NCBI GenBank assembly: GCA_012813795.1
Contig: GCA_012813795.1_4087.1
DNA: 64,000 nt
Direction: 5' to 3' (one strand)
Source of the DNA: a phage
In this document: positions 7,402 to 30,576 of the stretch, one piece after another
Layout: every line of letters starts with the position of its first letter
How positions within the stretch are numbered: position 1 is the first letter of the stretch
Program-made: the position numbers and the translations under genes
The notes under the pieces: model-generated
What the model saw: only the letters and a program-made list of their open reading frames with translations
What the model was told of the DNA's origin: nothing
Databases searched by the model: none

Positions 7402-8029
7402 GTTTTAGTTTCTCAATTGCTTTGGTTTGAGAAATACCTTCTGGGAGTTCAATGTAAAAAACTTTCTTATCAGAATCAGTTTTCACATTCGTTTCGTTGG
7501 GACGAAGAGAAGGTTCTAGGTTATAAGCACGCTCATAATGCTCTTTAGATAATTGATCATATTTTGCAGCAGTTTTTAGTAGTTCATCAACAATAGTTTC
7601 ATCTTCGACTTTTGTATCTTGAACTTGTGGATTGAATGGGTTGTAATCTTTTACTTTACCATCTTCATGTTTTTTACTTTCATTACCGTCGATTGCATCA
7701 TTCAGTACATCAAGTGAAATCTTGTTGTTACCGCCAGTGTGCATGTCAATATCACAAGTACGGACCTTACGTAGATATTGTAGATTGTGAAGAACATCTA
7801 GCATTTTACGACCATCGAGATAACCTACTTGATGCATAACTTCCCAAAGTTCAACAGAAGCTTGTCCACGACCCATAACTAAATCGGTTACAGCAGATAC
7901 ATATGCTTCTGGAAGTGAGTCACGATACACCACTAGACAATGATCATGATCATCTGGAAGTGAACGCCAAACAACGAAAACACGAGAACCAGTATTACGA
8001 ATTACACCTGTGTGACGAATAGCAGCCAT
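7373..8029 (-). CDS. Hypothetical protein
   Basis: 218-aa ORF, consistent strand and packing. Confidence 0.6.
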   Translation of the reverse strand: MAAIRHTGVIRNTGSRVFVVWRSLPDDHDHCLVVYRDSLPEAYVSAVTDLVMGRGQASVELWEVMHQVGYLDGRKMLDVLHNLQYLRKVRTCDIDMHTGGNNKISLDVLNDAIDGNESKKHEDGKVKDYNPFNPQVQDTKVEDETIVDELLKTAAKYDQLSKEHYERAYNLEPSLRPNETNVKTDSDKKVFYIELPEGISQTKAIEKLKLVFAERKNG

Positions 8030-8271
8030 TATTCTTCCCCTTCTGTACCAGCGGTATCTTGTGCTTGAGCAGCAGCTTCTTCACGTTCTTTGATATCAGC
8101 AAGTGCTTTATCAGCAAATTTAACGAACTTAGAAACAATTGGTGCTACGTTCACTAGTTCATCAACTTGAAACGCATTACGTGCAACCGCAGATTCCATA
8201 ATACGAGCAGCGTTGATTAGGTCAACTAGGTCTAGGATTACTTCGTCTTGTGCATTGTTTTCAGTACTCAT
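8029..8271 (-). CDS. Hypothetical small acidic protein
   Basis: 80-aa ORF, start overlaps stop of upstream gene. Confidence 0.55.
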   Translation of the reverse strand: MSTENNAQDEVILDLVDLINAARIMESAVARNAFQVDELVNVAPIVSKFVKFADKALADIKEREEAAAQAQDTAGTEGEE

Positions 8272-8346
8272 ATATTACTCTCCATGTATGTTATTACAAT
8301 TTCCATTATATCATAGTTAATTGGGTTGTCCCAATTATAAAATAAA

Positions 8347-8368
8347 AGAGAACGACGAATCGTTCTCT
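8347..8368 (-). terminator. Rho-independent terminator after the VWA gene
   Basis: AGAGAACGA-cgaa-TCGTTCTCT hairpin; T-rich tract on the minus-strand side (complement of aaaataaaag). Confidence 0.5.
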
Positions 8369-8378
8369 ATATTTATTT

Positions 8379-9854
8379 TTACGAACGTTGGCGTTTTTTG
8401 TCCGCTTCATATTCGTAGTGAACAGTTTCACCAAATGGTGCTACTTTGTTCGGGTTACTGTGGATTACAAACAGTGTTTTACAGTAGTTAGGATCACCCC
8501 ATGACTGCCACGGTTCACCATCGGTAAACATGATAAGCTGCTTAGGCTTATAATTGTCATGCTTCATGTGAACCCAAACTGCTTCAAAGTCAGTACCGCC
8601 ACCACCTTTAACTGGATATTCAAGAATCTTACGTTCTTCACCAGTTTTATAATCCATCACAGTATAAACTTCAGTATCAAATGTCATGATACGAATTTTA
8701 AACTGCTTGAATTGTTTAGTGATGCCTAGTACTTCACTGATGAAATCGCGAAGCATATCTTCACTGATAGAGCCTGATGCATCGAGTGCAATTGCAATAT
8801 CAATATCGTCATCTGGTTTCATGCCTGGGAAGATTGGATTCCCATAGAATGAACCGTTAGAACCAAAACCAGCACCCCACGAACGGCGGCTTGGGCTTTG
8901 ATAGGTCGCATCGGACTTCAACCAACTACGAAGAGTACGTTGAAGTTTAGAACGCCAGTCAATTTTTGGTTCTTTAAAGTTATTGATCATACGAGCGATT
9001 TCAGCAGGAGTACCACCTGCACGAGCAGCATTCATCATTGCTGTTTTGAAATCGTCCATGTATTCACGTTTTTGTGCTTCAGATGCACCACCTTCACCAC
9101 CTTCACCATCTTGTGGTACATCGTGTTGGTCAATGGTAGTGCCTTTGCCTTTACCATTTTGGATATCACCAAAAGTACCGCGTGATTTACCTTCACCTTC
9201 ACCACTACCAGATTGTGGCTGACCTTCACCTTCATCTTGATCTTGTTTATCTTCTTCTTCTAGAAGAATATAAATCTCTTCGGCGGTCATACCATCATAC
9301 TTCTTATCATACAACCATTGACTTTGAATCTTACCAATTTTTTCACGAACAATAATTTGGTTGATTGCGTAGTCTGCTGCACGGTTGTAGCGTTGTGGGT
9401 CACGCATACCACGACGAAGGAAGTGATCGTATGCACAGTGAAGAATTTCATGACAGATAACTGCAATCAGGTTTTCATCAGTCAAACCTTCGGTCATTTC
9501 TTTCAATTGTTCTTCAGTTACTTCAGGATGCTTCTCACGAATTGCTTCTTCGTATGCTTCTTTCTTGCTTGGGTCTTGAATACCCATGATAAATTCTACG
9601 TTATAGAATAAATGTTTACCATCTACTGCTAAGGTACGACACCATGTATTGTTTGCAACTGGACGCAGACGTGAAGCCAGTACACCAAAGAATGGAGCAG
9701 TTAACATCAGAGAAGTACGAGCAAGAATCAAACGGTCTTGGCATTCTTTCTGGAGTTGTGGTGTTACGTCGCTAAATTTCTTATCGGACATGATATTTCC
9801 TCGTTTAGTTAAGATAAAAGAAGGATACCATGTGGCATCCTTCTTGTCAAACAT
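8379..9854 (-). CDS. VWA-domain protein with N-terminal putative metallopeptidase domain (HExxH)
   Basis: HEILHCAYDH zinc-peptidase-like motif; C-terminal DIDIAIALDASGSIS MIDAS-type VWA motif; Gly/Glu-rich linker. Confidence 0.75.
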   Translation of the reverse strand: MFDKKDATWYPSFILTKRGNIMSDKKFSDVTPQLQKECQDRLILARTSLMLTAPFFGVLASRLRPVANNTWCRTLAVDGKHLFYNVEFIMGIQDPSKKEAYEEAIREKHPEVTEEQLKEMTEGLTDENLIAVICHEILHCAYDHFLRRGMRDPQRYNRAADYAINQIIVREKIGKIQSQWLYDKKYDGMTAEEIYILLEEEDKQDQDEGEGQPQSGSGEGEGKSRGTFGDIQNGKGKGTTIDQHDVPQDGEGGEGGASEAQKREYMDDFKTAMMNAARAGGTPAEIARMINNFKEPKIDWRSKLQRTLRSWLKSDATYQSPSRRSWGAGFGSNGSFYGNPIFPGMKPDDDIDIAIALDASGSISEDMLRDFISEVLGITKQFKQFKIRIMTFDTEVYTVMDYKTGEERKILEYPVKGGGGTDFEAVWVHMKHDNYKPKQLIMFTDGEPWQSWGDPNYCKTLFVIHSNPNKVAPFGETVHYEYEADKKRQRS

Positions 9855-9865
9855 TCTTTTAGTTA

Positions 9866-11191
9866 TTAACCAAGAGAACGTGCTTTGCGTACTAGGTCAG
9901 AGTACTTCATAACGAAGTCTTTGAACGCTGGAACATCTTTGTACGCAATCGCTACCTTATGTTGAGTGATGGTACGAATTGCTAGTACTGCCAGTTCTGC
10001 CTGAGTTTCGGAGAAGTTACGGTCCAGGAAGGTGATGAAGTTGTTGCACAGCTTGCCCCACTCTTCAACTGGAAGACGTTGTTCTTGCTTCTCATTGTAC
10101 AGGTCGATAATTTTATAAACCAGATTCAGAGAGATGAAGTAGTTCGCAGAAATATCCAGCGTTGCATCAATCTCTTTAATCTCACCCTGTAGGATGGACA
10201 TAGTATCTGGTAGTTTAGATACGTTTTCTACGTATTCGATATATTCAGTTGCTACACCTTCACCAACACGACCAGCGATTAGAGCACGGAACACTTCTTT
10301 ATCAATGTTGTTGCCTTTCTTCAGGTCTTCGTAGCGTGCTACTGCTTCCCATGAACGTGGAGAAGTACCACCACTGTGAGAAGGATCTTGTGGGCTAAGG
10401 GTGTTGAAGTACTTAGCACCAGTGTTGTTGATGAACGCAACAGTACCTGGGTTCAAACGCTTAGCAATCGCGTAATCGTCAATCCAATCTTGATGGTAAG
10501 GAACCATTTCGATGTGGGTCATACGGTCACGTAGTGGCGTTGCCAGAGAGAACGTTACGCCGCCATCAGTTTCACGGTTACCTGCTGCGAGAATCAGTGC
10601 AGTCTTAGGTAGCTTCATCTCACCAACACAACGGTCGAGGATTAGCTGATAAGACGCTGCCTGTACAATCGGCATAGCAGAGTTAATTTCGTCAAACAGG
10701 ATAACACCTTTCCAATCTGGAGACAGTTTCAGTACTTTAGGTGCTGCCCATACAACTGCTGTTTCAGCAATGTAATCTTTAGCTGTTTCCAGTTCAGATT
10801 CAATCAGTTGTTTGCCATCCATATCCAGGAACACTTTTTCAGGGACTGGGATACCACGTAGGTCACTTGGTTCAATCTGTGACAAACGGAAGTCGATGAA
10901 GTTAGTGTCTTGGTCAATCAGTTTTGCTTCAAACGCTGCCAGTTCGCGGCGAAGTGCATCAGCATTTTCAGCATCAACTTCAATTTGTTGTTTCATGAAC
11001 TCGATTTTAGCCAAGTTATCCTTACGAAGAGGATAGTTCTCGTCAGCGTATTGACGTGCAATCGCAGACTTACCGATACCAGGGCTACCCCAAATCATCA
11101 GACTGTCCTGAATTTTATCTGCCAGAGCCATAGCCATTTTTGCTTTCTTAGGAGTCAGTTTTACGTTCAGGATATCTTGTTGTTCGCTCAT
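9866..11191 (-). CDS. MoxR-type AAA+ ATPase
   Basis: Walker A GSPGIGKS, Walker B ILFDEIN; AAGG ribosome-binding site; directly upstream of the VWA partner. Confidence 0.8.
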   Translation of the reverse strand: MSEQQDILNVKLTPKKAKMAMALADKIQDSLMIWGSPGIGKSAIARQYADENYPLRKDNLAKIEFMKQQIEVDAENADALRRELAAFEAKLIDQDTNFIDFRLSQIEPSDLRGIPVPEKVFLDMDGKQLIESELETAKDYIAETAVVWAAPKVLKLSPDWKGVILFDEINSAMPIVQAASYQLILDRCVGEMKLPKTALILAAGNRETDGGVTFSLATPLRDRMTHIEMVPYHQDWIDDYAIAKRLNPGTVAFINNTGAKYFNTLSPQDPSHSGGTSPRSWEAVARYEDLKKGNNIDKEVFRALIAGRVGEGVATEYIEYVENVSKLPDTMSILQGEIKEIDATLDISANYFISLNLVYKIIDLYNEKQEQRLPVEEWGKLCNNFITFLDRNFSETQAELAVLAIRTITQHKVAIAYKDVPAFKDFVMKYSDLVRKARSLG

Positions 11192-11256
11192 GTGTATTTT
11201 CCTTTTGTTGGATAAAAAACTAGGTTTATATTATAACCAATCCGTTGGCAAAAGTA

Positions 11257-11296
11257 AAGGAACTGTGTTAAAAGTATTTTAACTTATCAGTTCCTT
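11257..11296 (-). promoter_or_regulatory. Long stem-loop in leader region
   Basis: AAGGAACTG ... CAGTTCCTT 9-bp inverted repeat; the loop carries a second palindrome TTAAAA-gta-TTTTAA. Confidence 0.3.
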
Positions 11297-11358
11297 ATCT
11301 TCAGTGAATCATCCGTGTGTTTAAAAAGGTCAATCTTGTTTGCCGTCTTGATGTGGTC

Positions 11359-11386
11359 ATTATATCACATCGTTCAGGCTTGTCAA
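11359..11386 (-). promoter_or_regulatory. Near-consensus sigma70 promoter P1
   Basis: Minus strand reads TTGACA-16 nt-TATAAT with TGn extended -10. Confidence 0.6.
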
Positions 11387-11452
11387 CAACTTTTTTTTCT
11401 TTCTTTTTCAATCTCACATCTTGTGATTTTGAAATCTTGCTTCGTGACGTTC

Positions 11453-11480
11453 ATTATATCACGTTAATCTGTACTGTCAA
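11453..11480 (-). promoter_or_regulatory. Near-consensus sigma70 promoter P2, tandem copy of P1
   Basis: Minus strand reads TTGACA-16 nt-TATAAT with TGn; shares GTGATATAATGA core with P1. Confidence 0.6.
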
Positions 11481-11544
11481 CATCTTTTTCATTTTTATTT
11501 TCGAAGCGTTCTACATATGCATCGAAAATAACTGCTTGAAATCA

Positions 11545-11889
11545 TCACCGACACAATGTTAATTCAGTAACTACCATTGCGTCGGAGAGATATATGTAGT
11601 AGCCATCAACATAATAAGGACTTCTACATATTCTATCAAGCGATGTAAATATTATAGAGCTTTTGAACTCTCTTAGCAAGGGGATTTTTGTAAATTCATA
11701 AAGATTATTTTCTTCACAAATCATAAATCCATACTTACTAAGCCTCAAACCACCACCAGTTCTGAAGTTTTCAAAAATAGACATCAGAAGCATTCTGTCA
11801 GTGATTTCAGCGTCCGATTCATGTACTTCTTTAACTTTTATAAGTACTTCATTTTGAAATTCAGTGCTGTTAGTGGGTTGTGGTATCAT
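11545..11889 (-). CDS. Hypothetical protein
   Basis: 114-aa ORF in co-directional series. Confidence 0.55.
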   Translation of the reverse strand: MIPQPTNSTEFQNEVLIKVKEVHESDAEITDRMLLMSIFENFRTGGGLRLSKYGFMICEENNLYEFTKIPLLREFKSSIIFTSLDRICRSPYYVDGYYIYLSDAMVVTELTLCR

Positions 11890-11891
11890 AA

Positions 11892-12293
11892 TTACATCCC
11901 CACAAAACCTTGTCTGGCAGCATAAGAAGGAGCATCTTTAACTTTATAGCTACGATGACCTTCACTGTCAACTTTAGGAGCCATATCTTCAGTACCGAAA
12001 TCTTCTTCAATTTCTTTAGTACTGTCTTTTGCTTCTAAGTCATCATTATATTCCACATCTGCCAAAATGTCACATGCTTTTTTAAGTTTTTCTGCGATTT
12101 CTTTATGGTCAGAACCTTCTTCTTTTGCTTTATCAACTAAAGCAACTAAAGATGTAGTGATTTCCTTTAGTAAATCAACGATAACGTTGTCCGAATCTTC
12201 TTGGACAACGATACCATTTTCTTCTTGAGGAACTTCTTCTTCTGCCATAATCGCATCTAGTGATTCCACTAGTTCACGATAGTTATATGACAT
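11892..12293 (-). CDS. Hypothetical acidic protein
   Basis: 133-aa ORF, Glu/Asp-rich. Confidence 0.6.
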   Translation of the reverse strand: MSYNYRELVESLDAIMAEEEVPQEENGIVVQEDSDNVIVDLLKEITTSLVALVDKAKEEGSDHKEIAEKLKKACDILADVEYNDDLEAKDSTKEIEEDFGTEDMAPKVDSEGHRSYKVKDAPSYAARQGFVGM

Positions 12294-12294
12294 A

Positions 12295-13233
12295 TTACTT
12301 ATCTCCTAGAAACTTATTGTACTTACTTTGGAGACTTTCAAAAATGTCTTCTACAGATTCGTCTTCTTCAGACTCTTCTTCTTCAGCTTCGTAAACATTA
12401 AGTGGGTTATCACCTAGAGCAGTACCAGGTGCTTTTGGCTTGAATTCATGTACACGATGTACATTGCCTTCATTATCATATTCTTCTGGATTTGGAACAT
12501 TGTCAAGTTCTTCTTGAACAACACGTCTCCAGTAGAATTGGTTTCCTTTAGGAACTACGATGAAGTTATCACCTTCAACACCATTGGTTTTAGCTTGACC
12601 ATCTTGAACAGCATCGTATTCAGAACGGAAAGGACCAAAATCAGTTGTGTCAAGTGCTGGACTCTCTTCTTCTAGACTTAGGTCAGGAAGGATTTGAGAT
12701 TCAGTAACTTCTTCTTCATCTTCATCTACTGCTTCAGTAACAGGAAGACCAGCTAGAGACATCATACGACCGAAATCGAATTCTTCTTCAATAACTTCTT
12801 CGTCTTCATCTGATAGAGTAGATTCTAGCTTAGGTTGACCACTCATGTCAAGAGAAAGTTCATCTTCTTCACCAGGAGCTTCAACATCGATAACTGGAAT
12901 GTCAGCTTCACCTTCTGCATCAGCACCGAAATCAGTTACTGAACCAGATAGATCATCAACAGCTTGTGCTAGTGGGTCTTCTTCACCAATTTCTGGAACA
13001 GGTGCTACATCAGCACCCATTTCTGGAGCAACAACTTCTGGTTCTTCCGCTGAACCACCAAAAGAACCGAAGTCAAGTGGAGCGATTGGAGAAACAGTAG
13101 GTGCTACGGATGATTGCTTTTCAGCTTGACCAGCTAGTGCAAGCATACGGGATAGTGCTTCTAGATCAGCAGATTCTAGACCAGCAATATCAATTTTAAC
13201 CTGTGCTTCATTAATTTTTTTTGCCATTTTCAA
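12295..13233 (-). CDS. Hypothetical highly acidic protein
   Basis: 312-aa ORF with long Asp/Glu-rich tracts. Confidence 0.65.
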   Translation of the reverse strand: MKMAKKINEAQVKIDIAGLESADLEALSRMLALAGQAEKQSSVAPTVSPIAPLDFGSFGGSAEEPEVVAPEMGADVAPVPEIGEEDPLAQAVDDLSGSVTDFGADAEGEADIPVIDVEAPGEEDELSLDMSGQPKLESTLSDEDEEVIEEEFDFGRMMSLAGLPVTEAVDEDEEEVTESQILPDLSLEEESPALDTTDFGPFRSEYDAVQDGQAKTNGVEGDNFIVVPKGNQFYWRRVVQEELDNVPNPEEYDNEGNVHRVHEFKPKAPGTALGDNPLNVYEAEEEESEEDESVEDIFESLQSKYNKFLGDK

Positions 13234-13246
13234 TAAATCCTTTTAG

Positions 13247-14719
13247 TTATTCATCATTATTATTTAATGATTTTAAAATCTGCACTACTTCATCTTTATT
13301 ACCAGCCAATAGAATGTCAGCGGCTAGTAAAGAAACCTTATCACCACGGGTTAGCAGTACTGTAATCTTTTTCGCATAAGGAGAAGATTTAATTTGTGAT
13401 GCAAGTGCTTCCATACCATTCCCTTGCTCAACTTCTGGTTCAGGGGTCGGTTCTGGTTTAGGCTCTTCCTTTGGTTCTTCTTTCGGTTCAGCCTGTGCTT
13501 CAGGTTTAGGTTCTTCTTGTGCTTTTGGTTCTTCTTGTGGTGCGTCATTTGGTTTAGGTTCATTCTCTGATTTAGAAGATTCAAAACGATCCAGAATAGC
13601 TTGTGCAGCACTTTTTGGAATCATTTTACCATCTGGACCAATGAATCGATCACCACCAACGTATACATATTCTTTGCCTTTCTTAGAAGTAACTTTTGTT
13701 CCGATTTTCATTGCACCAGATTCGTTATGTTTAAGAATGGCTTGTTGTGCAGCACGCTCAATACTTTGTGCAGCACCTGAATTTAGTTGTTTTTTAGTTT
13801 CAACATCAAACCAAGCACCACGTTGTTTAGCATAAGTTTTGTTTTTACCAGAAGTAAAACGGTATCCATCTGGTACACCAACTGCTGGTTCATCTTCAGC
13901 TTCGGTAACTTTTTCTGGCTTCGGTACAGAACCAAAACGTTGTTCTTCACCAGTACTAGCACCAGTTAAAGAAGGAAAATCTTCAGGATTTGCCTTAACG
14001 AACTGTGAATATGCTTGGAAAATAGCTTTCGAGCCTTGTTCAGATACTACCACATTACCGTCATTATCGCAAAATTCTTTACCGTTCCATTCAGAACGAA
14101 CATTACCTTGAATCAATACAGATTTCAATGGGATTAGTTTATTGTTTGTAGATAATTGGCGAGCAATGCGAAGACCTTCTTCACTTAGTTTACGTGTCAT
14201 TTCTGGGCTTACAGGGCGACCGCTTTTTAGTTCAACAAAGCGATGACTGTTAGGAATAAACTTATATCCTTGAACTACAATACCTGCTGGGATAGAAATA
14301 TCTTGTGCATGTGGGGGTAGAATATAAAATTTCAAAGTACTCCACTCTTTTTGTAGAGTTTCTTTGGAAACTTGATATACACGTTGTTCATCACCCATTA
14401 GTTCTGTAATCACTTCACTTTCAGAAAGAATAGTACCGTCATCACTATGGAAGCGGCTTTCACCGATGAACGTACACTCTTTTCCATTGTGAAGATAGTT
14501 TTCGCCAATTTTAAATGCAGTGTTTGATTTATTGTTGTGCTCAACAATTTGTTGTCGAGCACAAGCATACATATTTGGATATTTTTGTGGATCAACCATC
14601 ATCATATTACTATCATTGAACCACATACCTTCTAAGAAGACATATTTTGCTCCAGTATGGGAAGTATAGATATACCCATTAGGAACTACCGTACTTTCAG
14701 TACTGAATAATTTAAGCAT
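13247..14719 (-). CDS. Hypothetical protein with Pro/Glu/Lys-rich linker
   Basis: 490-aa ORF; EPKxEEPK low-complexity repeats near C-terminus. Confidence 0.65.
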   Translation of the reverse strand: MLKLFSTESTVVPNGYIYTSHTGAKYVFLEGMWFNDSNMMMVDPQKYPNMYACARQQIVEHNNKSNTAFKIGENYLHNGKECTFIGESRFHSDDGTILSESEVITELMGDEQRVYQVSKETLQKEWSTLKFYILPPHAQDISIPAGIVVQGYKFIPNSHRFVELKSGRPVSPEMTRKLSEEGLRIARQLSTNNKLIPLKSVLIQGNVRSEWNGKEFCDNDGNVVVSEQGSKAIFQAYSQFVKANPEDFPSLTGASTGEEQRFGSVPKPEKVTEAEDEPAVGVPDGYRFTSGKNKTYAKQRGAWFDVETKKQLNSGAAQSIERAAQQAILKHNESGAMKIGTKVTSKKGKEYVYVGGDRFIGPDGKMIPKSAAQAILDRFESSKSENEPKPNDAPQEEPKAQEEPKPEAQAEPKEEPKEEPKPEPTPEPEVEQGNGMEALASQIKSSPYAKKITVLLTRGDKVSLLAADILLAGNKDEVVQILKSLNNNDE

Positions 14720-14731
14720 TGTATTATCCCC

Positions 14732-15289
14732 TTACGAAATCATTCGAAGTAGTTGCTCACGTTCAGCAGGACTTAGACCTTGTAGAATACCAGCAATACC
14801 TTGTGATTGGGTAGATGGATTCGCCGCTGGTTGTGGTGGTTCATTTGAAGCTTGTGGTGCTGCTGCTGGTTCACTTTGTGGTTTAGCTGGTGCTGGTGCT
14901 GGCTCTTCTTGATCACGATATGTGTTCATGTATTCACGAGAAGCCTGTAGTAGAGCGTTACCAACATCTTTAGGTGTGAAAGAACGGCGTTGGTTATTAC
15001 CAAGGAATTTCACATCCAATTGATTACCTTTGAAGAATTGTGCAACATCAGCATATGGAACAGAGCTTTGTGCTTTACCATATTTTTTACCAATATATCG
15101 TTTAAATTCAGCCCATAGGCGGTTAGCTTCTGCACCAACTTCCTGTGCACCTTGCTCAATCTGCCCACTACCGAACATACCTTTTACTTTCCCTTTAGCA
15201 CTATCAATAGCACTTTGAGAACGACTATAAGGACGAGCTTCATTCAGTTCATTGTCCTCATACTCAAACATTTCATTAAGTATACTCAT
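14732..15289 (-). CDS. Hypothetical protein
   Basis: 185-aa ORF, Pro/Ala/Gln-rich C-terminal region. Confidence 0.6.
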   Translation of the reverse strand: MSILNEMFEYEDNELNEARPYSRSQSAIDSAKGKVKGMFGSGQIEQGAQEVGAEANRLWAEFKRYIGKKYGKAQSSVPYADVAQFFKGNQLDVKFLGNNQRRSFTPKDVGNALLQASREYMNTYRDQEEPAPAPAKPQSEPAAAPQASNEPPQPAANPSTQSQGIAGILQGLSPAEREQLLRMIS

Positions 15290-15292
15290 CGT

Positions 15293-15823
15293 TTATTCCT
15301 TTTTACCAAAACCAGCACTCATATATTGAGAGTATTTATTATCACGTTTAATCTCTTCTTTTGCGTCTTCAACTGCTTTGTCAGCACGTTCTTGACCAGA
15401 AATACCAGTACTATCTACTGCATCACCGAAATCTTTTCCGATAACACGAATTTCGTCAAAATCAACGTCATCTTCACTGATTGACATTTCAATTTGACGT
15501 GGTTCATCTTTACCGCGAACACGAATAAGTGCTTCAGTAACAGATAGAAGGTTTCCAATTTCATACATTAGTACATTAGACTGTACACCACGATTGCATT
15601 TGAAATCAAACATCCAGATTTCACCACAATCTAGTTCATAAAAGTCTAGTGGTTTTTCCATGAAAATAGTTTTCTTCAGAGCACCAACTTCGAAAGCATC
15701 ATAGCGATCTACTAGACGTTGGGTAACTTTACTCAATTGTTCAGTACTAGGTTCAAATGCAAATTTGACACGATATTCATATACAGGTTTATTTTCTGTT
15801 AGAATTTGTTGTAGTTTGTTCAT
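15293..15823 (-). CDS. Hypothetical protein
   Basis: 176-aa ORF. Confidence 0.6.
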   Translation of the reverse strand: MNKLQQILTENKPVYEYRVKFAFEPSTEQLSKVTQRLVDRYDAFEVGALKKTIFMEKPLDFYELDCGEIWMFDFKCNRGVQSNVLMYEIGNLLSVTEALIRVRGKDEPRQIEMSISEDDVDFDEIRVIGKDFGDAVDSTGISGQERADKAVEDAKEEIKRDNKYSQYMSAGFGKKE

Positions 15824-15851
15824 TTAATAACTCCATTAATGGTCGTTTAAG

Positions 15852-17965
<2,114 letters not shown>

Positions 17966-17975
17966 AGTACTCTCC

Positions 17976-18752
17976 TTAAAAACCTATATTACCGAATACA
18001 CGGTCAATGATATCTAGTCCTTGGTTTACTTTTTCTGGTAGTAATGAATTAATGCGAGTACTATACATTTCTTCAATATTATCAAATTGAATACAATTAT
18101 CAGGTTTAATTGTAATATCCATAGTTACTGGTGCACTAGAGCTATATTCCAATGTATCGTAACTAATATTGGTGATGATACACCCTGTAAGAACAAAGTA
18201 TTCCATTACACCAGCACTGTTATAGTTTGAGCCACCAATGAACTGATCTACTGCATTAACCAACCCACCATTATTTGTCACAGCGGTAGCAGCAGAAACA
18301 GCAGTATTTCTTGCTAAATCTTCAATGCTGTCATCAGTATTACGTCCATTTAGCATTTGAATAACCATACCAAATTTATATGAACCATAGTCCTGATCAC
18401 TTCTGGATGTAATTCGTCGTTGAAAATCTAATTGTTTTTGTAACTGTCTTGACAATGCTTTAGCACTTTCATTACCGATTGAATCACGAATTGTTAGTGT
18501 GATGGGTTCCCAGTTATGATTACCAATATATGTAGTATTGGTAGTAAAATGGTTCAACTTATGAGTACTGAATGTTACTGTTGGTCTATCAACTTTATCA
18601 ACATCTAATGCGATGTGATCACGCTCATCAATATCAGTACCGAAATTATAAACAATAACTCTAAATTTATACTTAGCTTTAGGTTGTAGCATTGTTTTAT
18701 TTCTTCCCGATGGTAATGGAACGCCATATTTACTAATCATGTTTTTTGCCAT
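17976..18752 (-). CDS. Tail tube protein paralog B (putative)
   Basis: N-terminus KYGVPLPSGRNKTMLQPKAKYKFRVIVYNFG is clearly paralogous to 18840..19523; sits after the sheath gene. Confidence 0.5.
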   Translation of the reverse strand: MAKNMISKYGVPLPSGRNKTMLQPKAKYKFRVIVYNFGTDIDERDHIALDVDKVDRPTVTFSTHKLNHFTTNTTYIGNHNWEPITLTIRDSIGNESAKALSRQLQKQLDFQRRITSRSDQDYGSYKFGMVIQMLNGRNTDDSIEDLARNTAVSAATAVTNNGGLVNAVDQFIGGSNYNSAGVMEYFVLTGCIITNISYDTLEYSSSAPVTMDITIKPDNCIQFDNIEEMYSTRINSLLPEKVNQGLDIIDRVFGNIGF

Positions 18753-18793
18753 AGCAACCTCTTTTAATTTAAGGTATTATACTTTATTTAGCA

Positions 18794-18822
18794 TAAAAAA
18801 AGCCCCGAAATAGTTTCGAGGC
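18794..18822 (-). terminator. Rho-independent terminator between the two tube paralogs
   Basis: GCCCCGAAA-tag-TTTCGAGGC hairpin (one mismatch) followed on minus strand by TTTTTTT. Confidence 0.55.
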
Positions 18823-18839
18823 TTTAGAAGTATCTTTAA

Positions 18840-19523
18840 TTAATCAAAGAAGTTTGTATCAGGTAGTGTAGTACTACTAATGTTGGTTTGTGCACCACTA
18901 ATAGAAGATGCAGTACTTGGGTTACCGAAACCAGTAACTTCATCACCGAATGCTTCACCGTTTGGACCCAACTTAGCACAACCATCTGGTTGAACACTCA
19001 TTGTAATAACTTGTGCTTCGCTTGAAGAGTAATCCCAATCACCAAAGTTGCTGGATTCAATAAAGCAACCCTGACAAACCCAAGTACTTAGAGTACCTTC
19101 AAAAAGGTTTGTTGCATTTTCGCTGTTAGAACCATCTAGTTCTTGAATCCACATTTCAAATTTAAACTGGGAATCAGTCATACGAGATTCTTGACTATAG
19201 TAGTTGAATTCTTTACGCATTTGGTTGTAAAGTGCTTTTGCTGAAGCATTACCAACTGAATCACGGAAAGCAACTTCAATCGCATCCCAAGTATATTTGC
19301 CTTTATAGTGTGCGGAACTGTTATAACTATGAACAGTTACGTTTTCATGCGATACTGATACTGCACCAACAGTGTTAGTATCTAGTGTAATCATGTTGCC
19401 ATCATCATTGGCACCAAAACCAAAGAAAATTACACGGAATTTATATTTTGCTTTTGGTTGTTTCATTGAAATACGACCACCACCAGCAAGCGGAACGCCA
19501 TATCGATCTAGCATAGTAGCCAT
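18840..19523 (-). CDS. Tail tube protein paralog A (putative)
   Basis: N-terminus RYGVPLAGGGRISMKQPKAKYKFRVIFFGFG; gene order sheath then tube as in T4 genes 18 and 19. Confidence 0.5.
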   Translation of the reverse strand: MATMLDRYGVPLAGGGRISMKQPKAKYKFRVIFFGFGANDDGNMITLDTNTVGAVSVSHENVTVHSYNSSAHYKGKYTWDAIEVAFRDSVGNASAKALYNQMRKEFNYYSQESRMTDSQFKFEMWIQELDGSNSENATNLFEGTLSTWVCQGCFIESSNFGDWDYSSSEAQVITMSVQPDGCAKLGPNGEAFGDEVTGFGNPSTASSISGAQTNISSTTLPDTNFFD

Positions 19524-19680
19524 TTATATTCTCCTGTTATGGAATGACATCTTTATATTATTTATCTATTACTTACACTTTTATTGAAGTATCTCATCAA
19601 CAGGAAACCAATCTATATTCACACAATACAAGTACTTTTTTTCTTGTTTATGATCTGTATAGTTTACACCAACCGACCAT

Positions 19681-19827
19681 TTACCATTTGTGTAAACATT
19701 GTATTCTCGAATTATACCGACAATGTTCCAAATTTTGTATAAAAGCTTTAAGGATTTTTACGGCATCGTCCTGTGTTGTTACAGTTTTACTTACATCTTG
19801 TAATGTTTTTTTAAGTATTTCTTCCAT
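19681..19827 (-). CDS. Small hypothetical protein (48 aa), not in ORF track
   Basis: ATG preceded by AGGAA ribosome-binding site; fills the gap between sheath terminator and tube gene. Confidence 0.4.
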   Translation of the reverse strand: MEEILKKTLQDVSKTVTTQDDAVKILKAFIQNLEHCRYNSRIQCLHKW

Positions 19828-19877
19828 ATTATTCCTGATCGTTGAATTAATAACATAACGTATTTAATTTTAAACAA

Positions 19878-19902
19878 TAAAAAAGGGAACCATATGGTTC
19901 CC
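19878..19902 (-). terminator. Rho-independent terminator just after the sheath gene
   Basis: GGGAACC-atat-GGTTCCC perfect hairpin followed on minus strand by TTTTTTATT. Confidence 0.7.
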
Positions 19903-19910
19903 TTAGTGTG

Positions 19911-22574
19911 TTATTGAGTCTTTTCAATACGAATCGGTACGTAAATGAAGTTGATAGACTTAGTAGGTTGGATTGCGATATCCATCCAAAGTTCGTTACG
20001 GTCAATACGCTCGGAGGTGTTGTTACTTTCATCACAAACAACTGCGAAGTTATATAGACCTTGTTGTTGAACGATTTCAGCTAGGAAGCTATTAACTACA
20101 CCACTGAATTCCTGACGAGTACTTGGAGTATTCAAACGGAATAGGAATGGTTCAGAAATAATTTCTAGTTGACGACGAATATAAACAACTAAACGTGCAA
20201 CGTTAACACGGCTTTCTGCGGAAGTTTGGTTAGGAGATAGTGTTTTATCACCATATACTAGCAAACCACGATTTGGACGCATTGCAATTGGGTTAATGTT
20301 GTTGGTGTACATTACATCACGTTGGCCTTGGTTGTAAACAACTGGTTGATATTCACCTTCATCATTGATGAAGCCTACAGAAGCAGCGTTGGTTACAACA
20401 CCACGAGTAGTACCAGCAGGTGGATACCATACATAACTTACGCTATCGCTGTAAGCATAGGTACGCATTGCAATAGTACTTCCTGGAACTGCAACTTCTT
20501 CACCATCAACGTTAGTACTTAAGCACCAGCCCATATATTGAGCAGCATAATCATATGCAGTTGTGCGACCAACATCACCATTACTTGGTGCGTTATTTGC
20601 GTTAGTTGCCCATTGTTGAACAGCATTACCGTTACCAGTTGGGTTCAAACGTGCTGGAACATCAGTTACGATGAAAGCAGTTTCTTTACGGTCGGTGTTT
20701 AGGGTCACACACTCATCTAAACATTCAACATAACCAGGAACAGAAATTAGGTTAAAGTCAATGAATTCAGAACGGATATCATCGTTTCCAACGATAACTG
20801 CATTTAGTGCTTCTACAACCAATTGGCGTTGTGCAGCACGACCAAACAGGCCATTCCCATCAAGACCAACACCACTGACAACATGCCAAAATCCATCGAT
20901 CATTTTCTTAACCACACCTTCAGTATTTCCAAGGTCGATTGCGAGCATACCGTTTTGGTATAGAGCAGCCGCTGGAACTTGTTCAGGGAAGTTAAAGTCT
21001 TTGAAGATCATACCGTTTAGTGTACTTTGATCAGTACTGTCAAGTTTAACCCACTCACCATTAACATTACGATAGAAATCGTAGCCATCAATACCTTGTG
21101 ATTTAGGAGAAACCCAGATTGTACGGTCCGCAGCAGGTTCGTCAACTTGCACATATTTGTTAGCTTCGTCAACTTCAACCCATTTGTCATTAGCAACATC
21201 AGCTAGATACATGGTAACATTTAGATTATCAGAATTACTGAAATCATACCATAGAGTACCTTCTTTAGCGATACTACGTGGAACGAAACTATTAACACGG
21301 AAATTATTAACGTTAATCAAAGCATAGTTATTACTATCAACAGTTAGTTTTACAAATTCATCTTCATCAAATAGTTCACTACCACTTTGTACAGTTTTGA
21401 AACTATAACCTTTAGAACTATTAATTACTAGGCCACCATTACTTTCTCTTTTAAATTTAAAGCCATCATTGATTAGTTCAGATGAAGCATTTAGATTGTC
21501 AAGAATAGTTTGGGTGTTGATAACACCACCTAGTGCAACTGCTAGTACTTTAACAGTTTTGGTCAAATAAGAGAAAGTCAAGTAAGAATCTTGGTCTGCT
21601 TGAACAACTACAGTTTCACCAACTGGAATCGCTGGAGCACTTAGTGCTGGTAGTTTTGCACTTTGAATATAGAAAGAGAAACTCTTACTATCCCAGTCAA
21701 AACGAGTAGCGATGAAGCTGTTATTTAGAACACCACTTTTGGATTCAATTTCTTGGAAACTGTTACCAGTGAATGCTTGTACTTGATTCCAAACTTGAGT
21801 TAGGGATGCATAACGTTTAATAACAAAACGAGTGCCGAAGTAATTAGCACCATTTTGAGTATAACCATCACGAATCCAGATATTACCTTTCTCAACAGTA
21901 TTACCAACTGGCACTTTGTTGATTGGTGAAAGGTAAGTTTCAACTTGAACTAGACCAGATGCTGCACGTTTGTACATTAGCATTTGACCATTGCTTGGCT
22001 TATAACGTAGTACTAGATCGTCAACGTTAATACCAACTAGGCTAACATCACTAACTTCTTCAGCACTAACAATAGTTACTGGTTTTAGTTGCCAGTCATA
22101 GAAACTGGTTGGTGAATCCACTTTAGAAACATATGCTTCAACTTGTGATTGAGCAACATCTAGCCACAATGTACCGTTTGGTACTGGACCAGTTGGAGCA
22201 GTAGCAGAAGGTGATAGTTGTGCTAAGTCGATATCTGCACGTACAACATAAGCACGATTAGTAATACCAAGGTAAGAATAAGCAGCATGTAGGCCGTATT
22301 CGTTTAGTTCGTCACCTTGAACAACTGAACCATTACTTGATTGAAAAATCGGTGTACCGTAAGTGTCTAGTGAACTTTTCTGAGAAGTTAGAAGTTGCAA
22401 CTTACCAGCATTTGCTTTTGTGGTTCCAGCAGCGATTGTGTTGCTACCAGGTACTAATTTATCTTCTGCGGTAGCAATGATGAATAGTGGTACTGTTCCA
22501 GGTGCGGAAGCAGTGCTCATACTTTCATCAGTAACTGAAATGGAAACGCCAGGCGATAGGAGTTCTCCTGCCAT
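19911..22574 (-). CDS. Tail sheath protein
   Basis: N-terminal LLSPGVSISVTDES and C-terminal YNFAVVCDESNNTSERIDRNELWMDIAIQPTKSINFIYV match T4 gp18 signature regions; GGAGGA ribosome-binding site. Confidence 0.9.
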   Translation of the reverse strand: MAGELLSPGVSISVTDESMSTASAPGTVPLFIIATAEDKLVPGSNTIAAGTTKANAGKLQLLTSQKSSLDTYGTPIFQSSNGSVVQGDELNEYGLHAAYSYLGITNRAYVVRADIDLAQLSPSATAPTGPVPNGTLWLDVAQSQVEAYVSKVDSPTSFYDWQLKPVTIVSAEEVSDVSLVGINVDDLVLRYKPSNGQMLMYKRAASGLVQVETYLSPINKVPVGNTVEKGNIWIRDGYTQNGANYFGTRFVIKRYASLTQVWNQVQAFTGNSFQEIESKSGVLNNSFIATRFDWDSKSFSFYIQSAKLPALSAPAIPVGETVVVQADQDSYLTFSYLTKTVKVLAVALGGVINTQTILDNLNASSELINDGFKFKRESNGGLVINSSKGYSFKTVQSGSELFDEDEFVKLTVDSNNYALINVNNFRVNSFVPRSIAKEGTLWYDFSNSDNLNVTMYLADVANDKWVEVDEANKYVQVDEPAADRTIWVSPKSQGIDGYDFYRNVNGEWVKLDSTDQSTLNGMIFKDFNFPEQVPAAALYQNGMLAIDLGNTEGVVKKMIDGFWHVVSGVGLDGNGLFGRAAQRQLVVEALNAVIVGNDDIRSEFIDFNLISVPGYVECLDECVTLNTDRKETAFIVTDVPARLNPTGNGNAVQQWATNANNAPSNGDVGRTTAYDYAAQYMGWCLSTNVDGEEVAVPGSTIAMRTYAYSDSVSYVWYPPAGTTRGVVTNAASVGFINDEGEYQPVVYNQGQRDVMYTNNINPIAMRPNRGLLVYGDKTLSPNQTSAESRVNVARLVVYIRRQLEIISEPFLFRLNTPSTRQEFSGVVNSFLAEIVQQQGLYNFAVVCDESNNTSERIDRNELWMDIAIQPTKSINFIYVPIRIEKTQ

Positions 22575-22623
22575 ATTAAATCCTCCAAAATAATTGGTTA
22601 TTCGAATATATTTCGTATAGTCT

Positions 22624-22631
22624 TATTTATT
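22624..22631 (-). promoter_or_regulatory. Late-promoter-like motif AATAAATA upstream of the sheath gene
   Basis: Minus strand reads AATAAATA about 50 nt upstream of the sheath ATG. Confidence 0.2.
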
Positions 22632-22667
22632 GGTGGATTTAATTGACTTGAGCTAATTGATTTTTTA

Positions 22668-23294: not shown

Positions 23295-23296
23295 AA

Positions 23297-23587: not shown

Positions 23588-23604
23588 GGAGTCTTTTTTT
23601 TATT

Positions 23605-25854: not shown

Positions 25855-25863
25855 GTGTTCTCC

Positions 25864-25896: not shown

Positions 25897-25908
25897 TATA
25901 TTATTAGG

Positions 25909-30525: not shown

Positions 30526-30537
30526 AATTAAAACTCC

Positions 30538-30569: not shown

Positions 30570-30576
30570 TGTTATA

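What the first reader, a model, noticed from the sequence alone, without database searches (positions are those of the whole stretch)
11192..11544. 350-bp regulatory region with two tandem near-consensus sigma70 promoters and structured elements
Two copies of TTGACA-16 nt-TGATATAAT lie about 95 bp apart on the minus strand. Between them is the inverted repeat TCACA-tct-TGTGA, operator-like, and further downstream a long hairpin (11257-11296). This looks like a strong host-polymerase early promoter cluster.
Basis: seen in the sequence. Interest (0 to 1): 0.45.

Follow-up and report, generated by a model that had tools for sequence, protein, structure and literature searches.

The report
Tandem phage promoters, terminator-bearing leader
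Two near-perfect host-type promoters in a jumbo E. coli phage feed a leader, conserved across related phage genera, that holds a terminator hairpin and a small GGA-loop hairpin ahead of an ATPase gene; the promoters are ordinary for such phages, but the leader RNA has not been described.

Summary
The window is a jumbo Escherichia phage, 99.5% identical to phage A4 (Asteriusvirus). Window 11192-11544 is a non-coding gap between a structural-gene block and an AAA-ATPase/VWA gene pair, all on the minus strand.

It holds two 12/12 sigma70 promoters (16-nt spacer, TGn, A-rich UP-like tracts) 94 nt apart. P1 is kept in all 12 relatives aligned, including Klebsiella RaK2-like phages. P2 is kept in 9/9 Asteriusvirus, and phage SP27 has three copies. 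P2 shares its start-site motif with the phage's early-region promoter array.

The "operator-like" repeat is the core of a larger hairpin (13-nt arms) that folds better than shuffles. The "long hairpin" belongs to the phage's intrinsic-terminator family. Its position between promoter and ATPase start is kept, with compensatory changes, in every relative examined across five named genera plus unclassified contigs.

Directly after it lies a 4-5 bp stem-loop with an invariant GGA loop and a covarying stem. It is not in Rfam.

Best reading: strong early-type promoters, then an attenuating terminator, then a protein-binding hairpin, then the ATPase, with a weaker third promoter past the terminator. 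No transcript data exist. The promoters are ordinary; the leader element is mildly novel.

The parts
11481..11505 (-). A-rich UP-like tract upstream of P1 (GAAAATAAAAATGAAAAAGATG)
   Evidence: Sequence read. A-rich tracts also precede the phage's early-region promoters. UP-like elements were reported for RpoD-like promoters of the related phage CBB.
11453..11480 (-). Promoter P1: -35 TTGACA (11480-11475), 16-nt spacer with TG at 11461-11460, -10 TATAAT (11458-11453). Predicted start near 11446.
   Evidence: 12/12 match with TG. Conserved in all 12 aligned phages, including Klebsiella RaK2, Muenster and K64-1.
11406..11434 (-). Inter-promoter hairpin / inverted repeat (UUUCAAAAUCACA-AGA-UGUGAGAUUGAAA).
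   Evidence: 13-nt arms, 85% complementary. z between -3.3 and -4.1 in all Asteriusvirus tested. RaK2 has a different-sequence hairpin at the same position, z -3.7.
11387..11411 (-). A-rich UP-like tract upstream of P2 (GAAAAAGAAAGAAAAAAAAGTTG)
   Evidence: Part of the 51-nt direct repeat shared with the P1 unit, 75% identity, 94-nt spacing.
11345..11386 (-). Promoter P2: -35 TTGACA (11386-11381), TG at 11367-11366, -10 TATAAT (11364-11359), start-site motif ACATCAAGAC (11354-11345). Predicted start near 11352.
   Evidence: 12/12 with TG. Present in 9/9 Asteriusvirus, degenerate in Klebsiella phages, and duplicated to a third copy in SP27. The start-site motif is shared with early-region promoters at A4 positions 9898 and 10963.
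11309..11318 (-). Upstream GGA motif (ACACGGAUGA) in the single-stranded part of the leader
   Evidence: GGATGA is invariant in 12/12. An NGGA motif lies 12-20 nt before the hairpin in 17 of 18 leaders from the phage groups compared.
11249..11301 (-). Terminator/attenuator hairpin: basal stem AAGGAACUG/CAGUUCCUU (11296-11288 / 11265-11257), apical stem GUUAAAA/UUUUAAC, U-rich tail UACUUUUG (11256-11249). Flanking A-rich and U-rich stretches can extend the stem.
   Evidence: -15.8 kcal/mol, z -3.1. ARNOLD terminator annotation at the homologous site in G17. Covariation at three stem positions with no broken pairs in the 17 sequences my script could register. The model built from other genera finds it at 30.8 bits. 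Same sequence family as the phage's ordinary terminators.
11237..11248 (-). Mini stem-loop CCAA-CGGA-UUGG with a GGA apical loop, directly after the terminator tail
   Evidence: Stem covaries across groups (CCAA/UUGG, GCUU/AAGC, GCUUA/UAAGC, CAAA/UUUG, UCAGA/UCUGA). 87% of cells paired against 67% in shuffles, 0/500. Loop reads A(C/U)GGA in 17/19. Such hairpins are not enriched elsewhere in the window, 10 against 8.8 expected.
11230..11258 (-). Weaker promoter-like site P3: TTTACT (11258-11253), 17 nt, TATAAT (11235-11230). It overlaps the terminator tail and the mini hairpin.
   Evidence: 10/12. The -10 is conserved in 9/9 Asteriusvirus and is TATCAT in RaK2. It is absent in PHA46, Eneladusvirus and Mimasvirus.
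11189..11204 (-). Shine-Dalgarno AAGGA (11204-11200) and ATG (11191-11189) of the AAA-ATPase gene
   Evidence: ORF 9866-11191. AAAAGGAAA is invariant in the 12-phage alignment.
9866..11191 (-). Downstream gene served by the region: AAA-type ATPase (441 aa). It is followed by a DUF2201 metallopeptidase/VWA-like protein (about 8379-9791).
   Evidence: Annotated as ATPase in A4. Weak Pfam AAA match. The neighbour matches DUF2201_N at 2e-35 and DUF2201 at 2e-20.

Best explanation
This is a compound, conserved transcription-control region of a jumbo (RaK2/121Q-group) phage that relies on host RNA polymerase.

Two tandem promoters, P1 and P2, each carry a UP-like tract, a consensus -35, a TGn and a consensus -10. 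They belong to the phage's family of very strong sigma70 promoters and fire toward the AAA-ATPase/VWA genes.

Their transcripts enter a leader of about 160 nt. There an intrinsic-terminator-type hairpin with a U-rich tail stops part of the polymerases before the gene, acting as an attenuator. The same hairpin probably also ends the upstream structural-gene operon.

RNA that reads through carries a small stem-loop presenting A(C/U)GGA in its apical loop. A second GGA lies before the terminator and, in Asteriusvirus, a third lies in the Shine-Dalgarno. These are most likely binding sites for an RNA-binding protein that tunes translation or readthrough. Host CsrA is the best-fitting known candidate.

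In Asteriusvirus a weaker third promoter past the terminator gives terminator-independent expression.

Shown here: the sequence elements, their conservation, and the covariation of both hairpins. Inferred: promoter activity and timing, termination, and the identity of any binding protein.
For: Promoters:
- Both are 12/12 with TG, and the pattern is absent from 100 shuffles.
- P1 is conserved in 12/12 phages from two genera, and P2 in 9/9 Asteriusvirus.
- The non-coding region is 79-86% identical across Asteriusvirus, similar to the flanking coding DNA.
- P2 shares ACATCAAGACGG with early-region promoters.
- Relatives are reported to use host polymerase with RpoD-like, UP-preceded promoters.

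Terminator:
- Fold z is -3.1, and ARNOLD annotates a terminator at the homologous site in G17.
- The order promoter, hairpin, U-tail, ATPase start is present in every relative examined: Asteriusvirus, Alcyoneusvirus, the PHA46 group, Eneladusvirus, Mimasvirus and unclassified IMG/VR contigs.
- The stem covaries at three positions with no broken pairs in the 17 sequences my script could register.
- A covariance model built without any Asteriusvirus sequence finds window 11230-11321 at 30.8 bits.
- The phage's ordinary terminators share the same sequence family.
- No other strong promoter in 214 kb of the genome has a simple terminator-like hairpin (perfect stem of at least 6 pairs, T-rich tail) before its first ORF.

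Mini hairpin:
- Covariation is significant.
- The GGA is mostly unpaired in partition-function folds of 8 representative leaders from the groups compared, P 0.65-0.98.
- It matches the published CsrA site definition, [A/C]UGGA / ANGGA in apical hairpin loops (PMC5207318).
- tblastn with E. coli CsrA found no hit in phages named for Escherichia, Klebsiella or Cronobacter (one Erwinia phage hit was not inspected), so a binder would most likely be host-encoded.

No ORF is conserved in the region.
Against: - No transcript 5' or 3' ends, expression timing or binding data exist for any phage of this group in the literature searched.
- In Asteriusvirus the U-tract is interrupted (UUUACUUUUG) and the stem is A/U-rich with an internal loop. 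Neither the tool's terminator scan nor my simple scan flagged it, so termination may be weak there.
- The covariation sample has only about six independent lineages, and the alignment was fitted to the model.
- The upstream GGA is absent in one lineage (L031). A GGA in a 40-nt A/T-rich leader is not rare by chance (my estimate about 0.4).
- The Shine-Dalgarno contains GGA in Asteriusvirus, Alcyoneusvirus and the PHA46 group but not in the Eneladusvirus- and GAP32-type leaders.
- P3 is limited to two genera.
- The orthologous promoter in distant genera is of a different class (TGAAAC -35), so 'early' may not hold throughout.
Confidence: 0.6

Rival explanations
1. The main product is a small non-coding RNA. 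P2 to the terminator would give an RNA of about 105 nt, and P1 one of about 200 nt (about 55-60 nt in Eneladusvirus- and GAP32-type phages). It would consist of a single-stranded GGA-bearing 5' part plus a terminator hairpin with a U-tail. It would be made in large amounts and act by base pairing or by titrating an RNA-binding protein. The ATPase would be expressed mainly from P3 or other downstream starts.
For: - The conserved order stop codon, promoter, about 45 nt, terminator holds in all groups, with the promoter overlapping the upstream stop codon in Eneladusvirus and Mimasvirus.
- The terminator in those genera is canonical and strong-looking (11-bp G+C-rich stem, CUUUUUUG).
- A GGA is conserved in the short 5' part.
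- Very strong promoters suit an abundant RNA.
- The related phage PA5oct has highly expressed non-coding RNAs.
Against: - The best-conserved, covarying element (the mini hairpin) lies after the terminator, so read-through RNA is under selection.
- The conserved bases just after the -10 are a promoter-family feature, not an sRNA seed.
- No downstream promoter is conserved outside two genera, so the ATPase would lack a promoter in most lineages.
- There is no Rfam match.
Confidence: 0.22
2. A plain promoter cluster with no attenuation. The hairpin is only the terminator of the upstream structural-gene operon, or an RNA-stability element. P1/P2 transcripts pass it efficiently, and the mini hairpin is incidental.
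For: - The Asteriusvirus hairpin has a weak, interrupted U-tract and was not flagged by two simple scans.
- No other convincing terminator lies between the upstream stop codon and P1; the repeat at 11495-11531 is not significant or conserved. The upstream operon therefore needs this one.
Against: - A terminator serving only the upstream operon would be expected ahead of the next promoter. Instead the order promoter-then-terminator is kept in every lineage examined.
- Covariation shows selection on the mini hairpin.
Confidence: 0.1
3. The inverted repeat between P1 and P2 (11406-11434), and the short repeats flanking each -10, are operators for a phage or host repressor that shuts the promoters off after the early phase.
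For: - The repeat is significant and conserved in Asteriusvirus.
- Short inverted repeats bracket the -10 of P1 (CGTGA...TCACG), of P2 (GATGTG-N10-CACATC) and of the promoter at 60372 (GTGTTCAT-N7-ATGAACAC).
- In P1 of this phage an ATG/CAT pair is replaced by ACG/CGT relative to 121Q.
Against: - The arms differ in sequence between promoters and between clades, so no single operator consensus exists.
- RaK2 keeps a hairpin at the place of the inter-promoter repeat but with unrelated sequence, which favours a structural role.
- Part of the -10-flanking symmetry comes from two independent promoter-family motifs, TGTG upstream of the -10 and ACATC at the start site.
- No candidate repressor was identified.
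Confidence: 0.06
4. The hairpin early in the P1 transcript is a cis-acting antitermination signal (like the put RNA of phage HK022 or a nut boxB site). P1-started polymerases would then pass the leader terminator while P2-started ones stop.
For: A significant, positionally conserved hairpin lies at +12 to +41 of P1 and upstream of a terminator. Having two promoters with different leaders would then make sense.
Against: - There is no sequence or loop resemblance to put or boxB (my knowledge of those sites).
- Genera with one promoter lack this hairpin yet keep the terminator.
- No Rfam hit.
Confidence: 0.02

Closest known systems
Phage T4 early promoters and the early/delayed-early arrangement (Hinton 2010, PMC2988021)
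   Same: T4 early promoters are described as 'uber' UP/-35/TGn/-10 promoters that out-compete host promoters. P1 and P2 carry the same four elements. T4 middle genes are served both by extension of early transcripts and by their own promoters. That mirrors P1/P2, then the terminator, then P3, then the ATPase. These jumbo phages share T4-like traits, including a gp55-like late sigma.
   Different: No MotA/AsiA-type middle promoter is evident in the window, and P3 is an ordinary weak sigma70 match. Two consensus promoters in tandem 94 nt apart, with a terminator ahead of any ORF, were not seen at other strong promoters in 214 kb of this genome. Timing is untested.
Tandem strong early promoters A1, A2, A3 of phage T7; T5 and lambda strong promoters (my knowledge; T7 PA1 and lambda PL are named as comparably strong in PMC2988021)
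   Same: Several very strong host-polymerase promoters are stacked within a few hundred bp, all firing in one direction.
   Different: T7's promoters sit at the genome end and drive the whole early operon. Here they sit mid-genome, downstream of a structural operon, and run into a terminator about 55 nt after the P2 start.
Lambda pR'-tR' (6S RNA) and other promoter-proximal terminator/attenuator units (my knowledge)
   Same: A strong promoter is followed within 100-200 nt by an intrinsic terminator, so that a short RNA is made unless polymerase reads through.
   Different: No Q-like antiterminator, Q-binding element or promoter-proximal -10-like pause signal was found, and no leader peptide is conserved. 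This is a 'works like' comparison only, not membership.
CsrA/RsmA binding hairpins in mRNA leaders (for example glgC) and sponge RNAs (PMC5207318)
   Same: GGA sits in the apical loop of a short hairpin, the loop reads A(C/U)GGA, and several GGA sites lie 38-70 nt apart. In Asteriusvirus one of them is in the Shine-Dalgarno.
   Different: Binding is untested. The Shine-Dalgarno lacks GGA in the Eneladusvirus- and GAP32-type leaders. The hairpin directly abuts a terminator tail, an arrangement I know of in no described CsrA target.
RpoD-like and 'divergent RpoD-like' (TGAAACG -35) promoters predicted in phages CBB and GAP32 (PMC5259590)
   Same: Same phage group and the same promoter types. The orthologous ATPase promoter in Eneladusvirus and Mimasvirus is exactly the TGAAAC(G)-N17/18-TGGTATAAT type.
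   Different: That paper gives genome-wide motif predictions. In the passages retrieved it does not mention this locus, the leader terminator or the GGA hairpin. In Asteriusvirus the promoter has a canonical TTGACA and is duplicated.

Membership tests
Sigma70 (RpoD) promoter of the strong phage 'UP/-35/TGn/-10' type | -35 TTGACA and -10 TATAAT separated by 16-18 nt | tested here: met
   Both P1 and P2 score 12/12 with a 16-nt spacer.
Sigma70 (RpoD) promoter of the strong phage 'UP/-35/TGn/-10' type | Extended -10 TGn at -15 to -13 | tested here: met
   TGA directly precedes TATAAT in both.
Sigma70 (RpoD) promoter of the strong phage 'UP/-35/TGn/-10' type | A/T-rich UP element between -40 and -60 | tested here: met
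   15-16 A in the 25 nt upstream of each -35. This rests on composition only, not on a scored UP consensus.
Sigma70 (RpoD) promoter of the strong phage 'UP/-35/TGn/-10' type | Transcription initiates about 7 nt downstream of the -10 with host holoenzyme | not testable with these tools
   No transcript data were found for this phage group.
Early promoter class of this phage (array at A4 record 8-24 kb) | Shared extended consensus: A-rich tract, TTGACA, 16-nt spacer, TATAAT, then ACATCAAG(A/G) at the start site | tested here: met
   P2 has ACATCAAGACGG, matching the promoters at A4 9898 and 10963. P1 has the weaker CACGAAGC.
Early promoter class of this phage (array at A4 record 8-24 kb) | AGTACTG immediately upstream of the -10 | tested here: not met
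   P1 and P2 have (C/T)GTGA instead. The same variant occurs at A4 88092 and 177983, outside the early region.
Intrinsic (Rho-independent) terminator | Stable hairpin conserved as a structure | tested here: met
   -15.8 kcal/mol, z -3.1. Three covarying stem positions with no broken pairs in 17 registered sequences. 97.8% of stem cells paired against 85.3% in shuffles.
Intrinsic (Rho-independent) terminator | Run of U immediately after the stem | tested here: inconclusive
   The window has UACUUUUG (5 U of 8, interrupted). Other genera have CUCUUUUG or CUUUUUUG. ARNOLD called the G17 homolog, but the tool's scan did not call the window copy.
Intrinsic (Rho-independent) terminator | Transcripts end at the U-run | not testable with these tools
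   No 3'-end data available.
CsrA/RsmA binding site | GGA core within ANGGA / [A/C]UGGA (PMC5207318) | tested here: met
   The mini-hairpin loop is ACGGA in 9 and AUGGA in 8 of 19 leaders. Definition taken.
CsrA/RsmA binding site | GGA presented in the apical loop of a hairpin | tested here: met
   A covarying 4-5 bp stem closes the loop. P(unpaired) of the GGA is 0.65-0.98.
CsrA/RsmA binding site | Two or more sites, one overlapping the Shine-Dalgarno | tested here: inconclusive
   Two GGA sites flank the terminator in 17/18 leaders. The Shine-Dalgarno contains GGA in Asteriusvirus, Alcyoneusvirus and the PHA46 group, but not in the Eneladusvirus- or GAP32-type leaders.
CsrA/RsmA binding site | Binding by CsrA and CsrA-dependent regulation | not testable with these tools
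   Requires a gel shift, CLIP, or a csrA/csrB background. tblastn found no CsrA homolog in phages named for Escherichia, Klebsiella or Cronobacter.
Any Rfam RNA family | Match at or above the family's gathering score | tested here: not met
   No hit in the window at gathering thresholds. Only chance-level hits at E up to 10 in 11100-11650.

The most novel reading that the evidence does not exclude
The leader upstream of the ATPase gene is an undescribed cis-regulatory RNA, shared by every relative examined (five named genera of RaK2/121Q-group jumbo phages plus unclassified contigs). It would consist of a terminator flanked by two GGA sites, the downstream one held in a covarying A(C/U)GGA-loop hairpin.

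Through it the phage would couple expression of its ATPase/VWA module to the host's CsrA state (growth and carbon status). Alternatively, driven by two or three stacked consensus promoters, it would flood the cell with a short GGA-bearing RNA that titrates CsrA early in infection.
Probability: 0.18. Interest if true: 0.65.

Novelty: new member of a known kind. Interest (0 to 1): 0.33.

Why it matters
The promoters are what one expects of a large lytic phage that depends on host RNA polymerase. They are useful mainly for annotation, and as very strong, compact, naturally tandem E. coli promoters.

The more useful result is the leader. A terminator placed between promoter and gene, followed by a GGA-loop hairpin, has been kept in every relative examined (five named genera plus unclassified contigs) while its stems changed sequence. 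That marks a point of post-initiation control in a phage group whose gene regulation is essentially unstudied.

It also gives a concrete, small target (about 75 nt) for experiments on attenuation and on possible use of the host regulator CsrA by virulent phages.

Tried and rejected
1. My first pattern search put the TG outside the spacer and found nothing. The corrected search is.
2. Rfam at gathering thresholds and at permissive E-values gave only chance hits (snoRNA, miRNA, a CRISPR repeat model matching the hairpin at E = 6).
3. No tRNA or tmRNA in the window.
4. I first took the conserved TTAAGAC/ATCAAGAC just after the -10 for an sRNA seed. I rejected this because it is a start-site motif shared by the phage's early promoters.
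5. A leader-peptide attenuator was considered, since mini-ORFs end inside the terminator's 5' arm in some lineages. I rejected it because the start codon is absent in several lineages and no ORF is conserved.
6. P3 was considered as the reason for conservation downstream of the terminator. I rejected this because its -10 is missing outside two genera while the mini hairpin persists.
7. GGA-loop hairpins as a recurring genome element: not enriched.
8. The inverted repeat upstream of P1 (11495-11531) as the upstream operon's terminator: not significant in most relatives and has no U-tail.
9. A replication-origin reading: no turning point of the cumulative GC skew at the locus, and the genes on both sides share one strand. 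This is weak evidence only.
10. A CRP site reading of TGTGA/TCACA: wrong orientation and spacing (read from the sequence; consensus from my knowledge).
11. Literature searches for transcript maps of Asteriusvirus or RaK2-like phages found none.
12. MAFFT mis-registered the long and short hairpins. This was solved with a covariance model.
13. My first terminator scan timed out and was rewritten.
14. I did not identify the second matching place reported in TH47-like genomes.
Full report
**Identity and setting**

The window is 99.5% identical over the tested 1.5 kb to Escherichia phage A4 (ON286972, Asteriusvirus, 355.5 kb). This places it in the PBECO4/121Q/G17 group of jumbo phages.

Window 11192-11544 is a non-coding gap on a stretch where all genes are on the minus strand. 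Upstream lie a 114-aa hypothetical gene (11545-11889) and a block of virion structural genes. Downstream lie an AAA-type ATPase (9866-11191), a DUF2201 metallopeptidase/VWA-like protein, four small ORFs and thymidylate synthase.

Phages of this wider group are reported to lack their own RNA polymerase. They are reported to carry RpoD-like promoters preceded by UP-like elements, a phage RpoD-like sigma and a gp55-like late sigma (PMC5259590; PMC11895373; PMC7318152). A 'sigma factor for late transcription' is annotated in A4.

**Checking the observation**

Two sites score 12/12 against TTGACA-16-TATAAT, each with TG at -15/-14. Their -35 hexamers start at 11480 and 11386, 94 nt apart. The composite pattern occurs three times in the window and never in 100 shuffles.

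Each site is preceded by an A-rich tract. The two units form a 51-nt direct repeat at 75% identity. Similarity is confined to the polymerase-contact elements, so this is not a recent duplication.

The repeat TCACA-AGA-TGTGA exists (11426-11414). It is the core of a larger inverted repeat with 13-nt arms (11406-11434).

The hairpin at 11257-11296 folds at -15.8 kcal/mol with z = -3.1. A third, weaker promoter match (TTTACT-17-TATAAT, 11258-11230) overlaps its tail.

**Conservation of the promoters**

The non-coding region is 79-86% identical across 35 Asteriusvirus records and is still alignable to Klebsiella RaK2-like phages.

In a 12-phage alignment P1 is present in all, with a single -10 change in 121Q and SP27. 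P2 is present in all nine Asteriusvirus and degenerate in the three Klebsiella phages. SP27 has a third unit, a 94-95-nt tandem copy of the P2 unit. Promoter copy number therefore varies between 1, 2 and 3 around a constant downstream leader.

A scan of 214 kb of A4 shows a dense early-region array of about 25 promoters, one per small ORF. Its extended consensus ends in ACATCAAG(A/G) at the start site. P2 carries ACATCAAGACGG, as do the early-region promoters at A4 9898 and 10963.

P1 and P2 differ from that array just upstream of the -10, where they have GTGA rather than AGTACTG. They are the only tandem consensus pair outside the early region in the 214 kb scanned.

**The hairpin is a terminator-type element placed after the promoter**

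Upstream of the ATPase orthologue, the layout is the same in Salmonella phage PHA46, Eneladusvirus (Erwinia, Yersinia), Mimasvirus (GAP32) and 17 IMG/VR contigs. One promoter often overlaps the upstream stop codon. About 45 nt follow, then a hairpin with a U-rich tail, then about 55 nt to the start codon.

In Eneladusvirus and Mimasvirus the promoter is the TGAAAC(G)-type described for CBB and GAP32. The hairpin there is a canonical G+C-rich terminator, for example AAAGCACUGAAUGUUCAGUGCUUUCUUUUUUC.

Registered on the invariant ACUG/CAGU core, the basal stem covaries at three positions: A-U/C-G/G-C, G-C/A-U, and G-C in 9 against A-U in 8. No pair is broken in the 17 sequences my script could register.

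A covariance model built only from nine short-hairpin leaders recovers window 11230-11321 at 30.8 bits (E about 0.0015) and the PHA46 group at 33-36 bits.

Its other hits in the window (30525-30590, 25850-25918) are ordinary terminators of the same AAAGGnAC...GUnCCUUUUCUU family. Each is followed directly by a GGAG Shine-Dalgarno and a start codon. The leader hairpin is therefore a member of the phage's terminator family. In G17 the homologous hairpin is annotated as an ARNOLD terminator.

No other strong promoter in the 214 kb scanned has a simple terminator-like hairpin before its first ORF. I found no convincing terminator between the upstream stop codon and P1. The hairpin probably also ends the upstream operon.

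**A second conserved RNA element**

Directly after the U-tail lies a 4-5 bp stem-loop whose loop is invariant GGA and whose stem changes sequence between lineages. The stem-loop variants are:
- CCAA-CGGA-UUGG (window)
- GCUU-ACGGAA-AAGC (RaK2)
- GCUUA-UGGA-UAAGC
- CAAA-UGGA-UUUG
- CCAAA-CGGA-UUUGG
- UCAGA-UGGA-UCUGA

On the MAFFT alignment 87% of cells pair against 67% in shuffles (0/500). There are 15 double-sided changes against 5 expected, and the signal collapses when partners are slid.

On the model-fitted alignment of 19 distinct leaders, both helices together pair in 97.8% of cells against 85.3% in shuffles. There are 32 double-sided changes against 8.7 expected (this alignment leans towards the model's structure). 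The loop reads A(C/U)GGA in 17 of 19.

A conserved asymmetric loop with a covarying stem points to RNA rather than a DNA operator.

A further NGGA lies 12-20 nt before the terminator in 17 of 18 leaders. In Asteriusvirus the Shine-Dalgarno is AAGGA.

Unconstrained folds of 8 representative leaders from the groups compared keep the terminator and leave the post-terminator GGA mostly unpaired. Such hairpins are not enriched elsewhere in the window. The region matches no Rfam family, and no ORF is conserved.

**The inter-promoter repeat**

The segment between the P1 start and the P2 -35 folds into a hairpin with z between -3.3 and -4.1 in every Asteriusvirus tested. RaK2 has an unrelated sequence forming a hairpin at the same place, z -3.7. 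This favours a structural role in the P1 transcript, or in the DNA upstream of P2, over a fixed operator. Its function is open.

Short inverted repeats also bracket the -10 of P1, of P2 and of the promoter at 60372. I could not test these statistically. Part of the symmetry comes from independent promoter motifs.

**Mechanism proposed**

Shown:
- the promoter elements;
- their conservation and variable copy number;
- a covarying terminator-type hairpin between promoter and gene in every relative examined;
- a covarying GGA-loop hairpin after it.

Inferred:
- P1 and P2 are very strong host-polymerase promoters, probably early.
- The hairpin terminates part of their transcripts, and also those of the upstream late operon.
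- Read-through RNA is regulated through its GGA sites by an RNA-binding protein.
- P3 gives Asteriusvirus a terminator-independent route.

This matches the T4 logic. There 'uber' UP/-35/TGn/-10 early promoters are followed by genes reached both by extension of early transcripts and from their own promoters (PMC2988021).

Host CsrA is the best-fitting known binder for the GGA sites. The published definition is [A/C]UGGA / ANGGA in apical hairpin loops (PMC5207318). tblastn with E. coli CsrA found no hit in phages named for Escherichia, Klebsiella or Cronobacter; one Erwinia phage hit was not inspected. Binding is untested, and the Shine-Dalgarno lacks GGA in the Eneladusvirus- and GAP32-type leaders.

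**Rivals**

- A small-RNA gene (promoter to terminator) is the main alternative. It is weakened by the selection seen downstream of the terminator and by the lack of a conserved downstream promoter.
- A plain promoter cluster without attenuation conflicts with the conserved promoter-then-terminator order.
- An operator reading lacks a shared consensus.
- A put/nut-like antitermination reading lacks any resemblance to those sites and does not apply to the one-promoter genera.
- An origin reading has no support.

**Verdict**

The promoters are a new member of a well-known kind. The leader, a terminator plus a GGA-loop hairpin, is an undescribed but modest cis-regulatory element assembled from known kinds of parts. 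No expression data exist, so all functional statements remain inference.

Noticed in passing
L036 (phage A4 record) about 8000-24000: Dense array of about 25 consensus sigma70 promoters, one per small ORF. They share an extended consensus that includes the palindrome AGTACT directly upstream of the -10, and often again upstream of the -35, with a Shine-Dalgarno (AAGGGGAG) immediately after the predicted start.
   Followed up: partly
L036 4139-6138: A 2-kb stretch with no annotated gene. It carries promoter-like sites on both strands (4801+, 4933+, 5477-, 5818-).
   Followed up: no
L007 (phage SP27) about 500-527, compared with L008 (121Q): SP27 has a third promoter unit, a 94-95-nt tandem copy of the P2 unit. 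It could be real copy-number variation or an assembly effect.
   Followed up: partly
window 60344-60372 (-): A third TTGACA-N17-TGNTATAAT promoter. Its -10 is bracketed by a perfect 8-bp inverted repeat (GTGTTCAT-TGCTATA-ATGAACAC).
   Followed up: no
window 44618-44646 (-): Another 12/12 promoter (17-nt spacer, no TG) directly upstream of the gene at 44035-44595.
   Followed up: no
window 23551-23600 (-): A canonical terminator (AAAAAAAAGACUCCAUGUUGGGGUCUUUUUU) followed at once by GGTGATATAATGAC. This is the same extended -10 core as P1 and P2 but without a -35. The called ORF start at 23587 lies inside the terminator and is probably wrong.
   Followed up: no
window 9818-9845 (-): A 12-bp hairpin (AAGAAGGAUGCC-ACAU-GGUAUCCUUCUU) between the ATPase stop and the start of the VWA-like gene, flagged as terminator-like. 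The A4 annotation places the VWA gene start at window 9791, not 9854.
   Followed up: no
L018 (Vibrio phage 2.275.O) 480-650: Upstream of the ATPase orthologue there is a tandem direct repeat of about 32 nt (GTGTTATAACAATATGTAAGCAGTTAAGCGCA, two copies). This may be another case of duplicated control elements at this locus.
   Followed up: no
window 30525-30590 and 25850-25918 (-): The phage's ordinary terminators share a sequence family (AAAGGnAC...GUnCCUUUUCUU) and are followed within a few bases by a GGAG Shine-Dalgarno and the next start codon.
   Followed up: partly
records TH47, vB_Ec-M-J, EC.P1, Ecwhy_1, fEgEco12, WPEC3/5, Turkey3, BF17: The 451-nt query matched a second place in each of these genomes but not in A4. 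This may be another copy of a promoter unit. The position was not determined.
   Followed up: no
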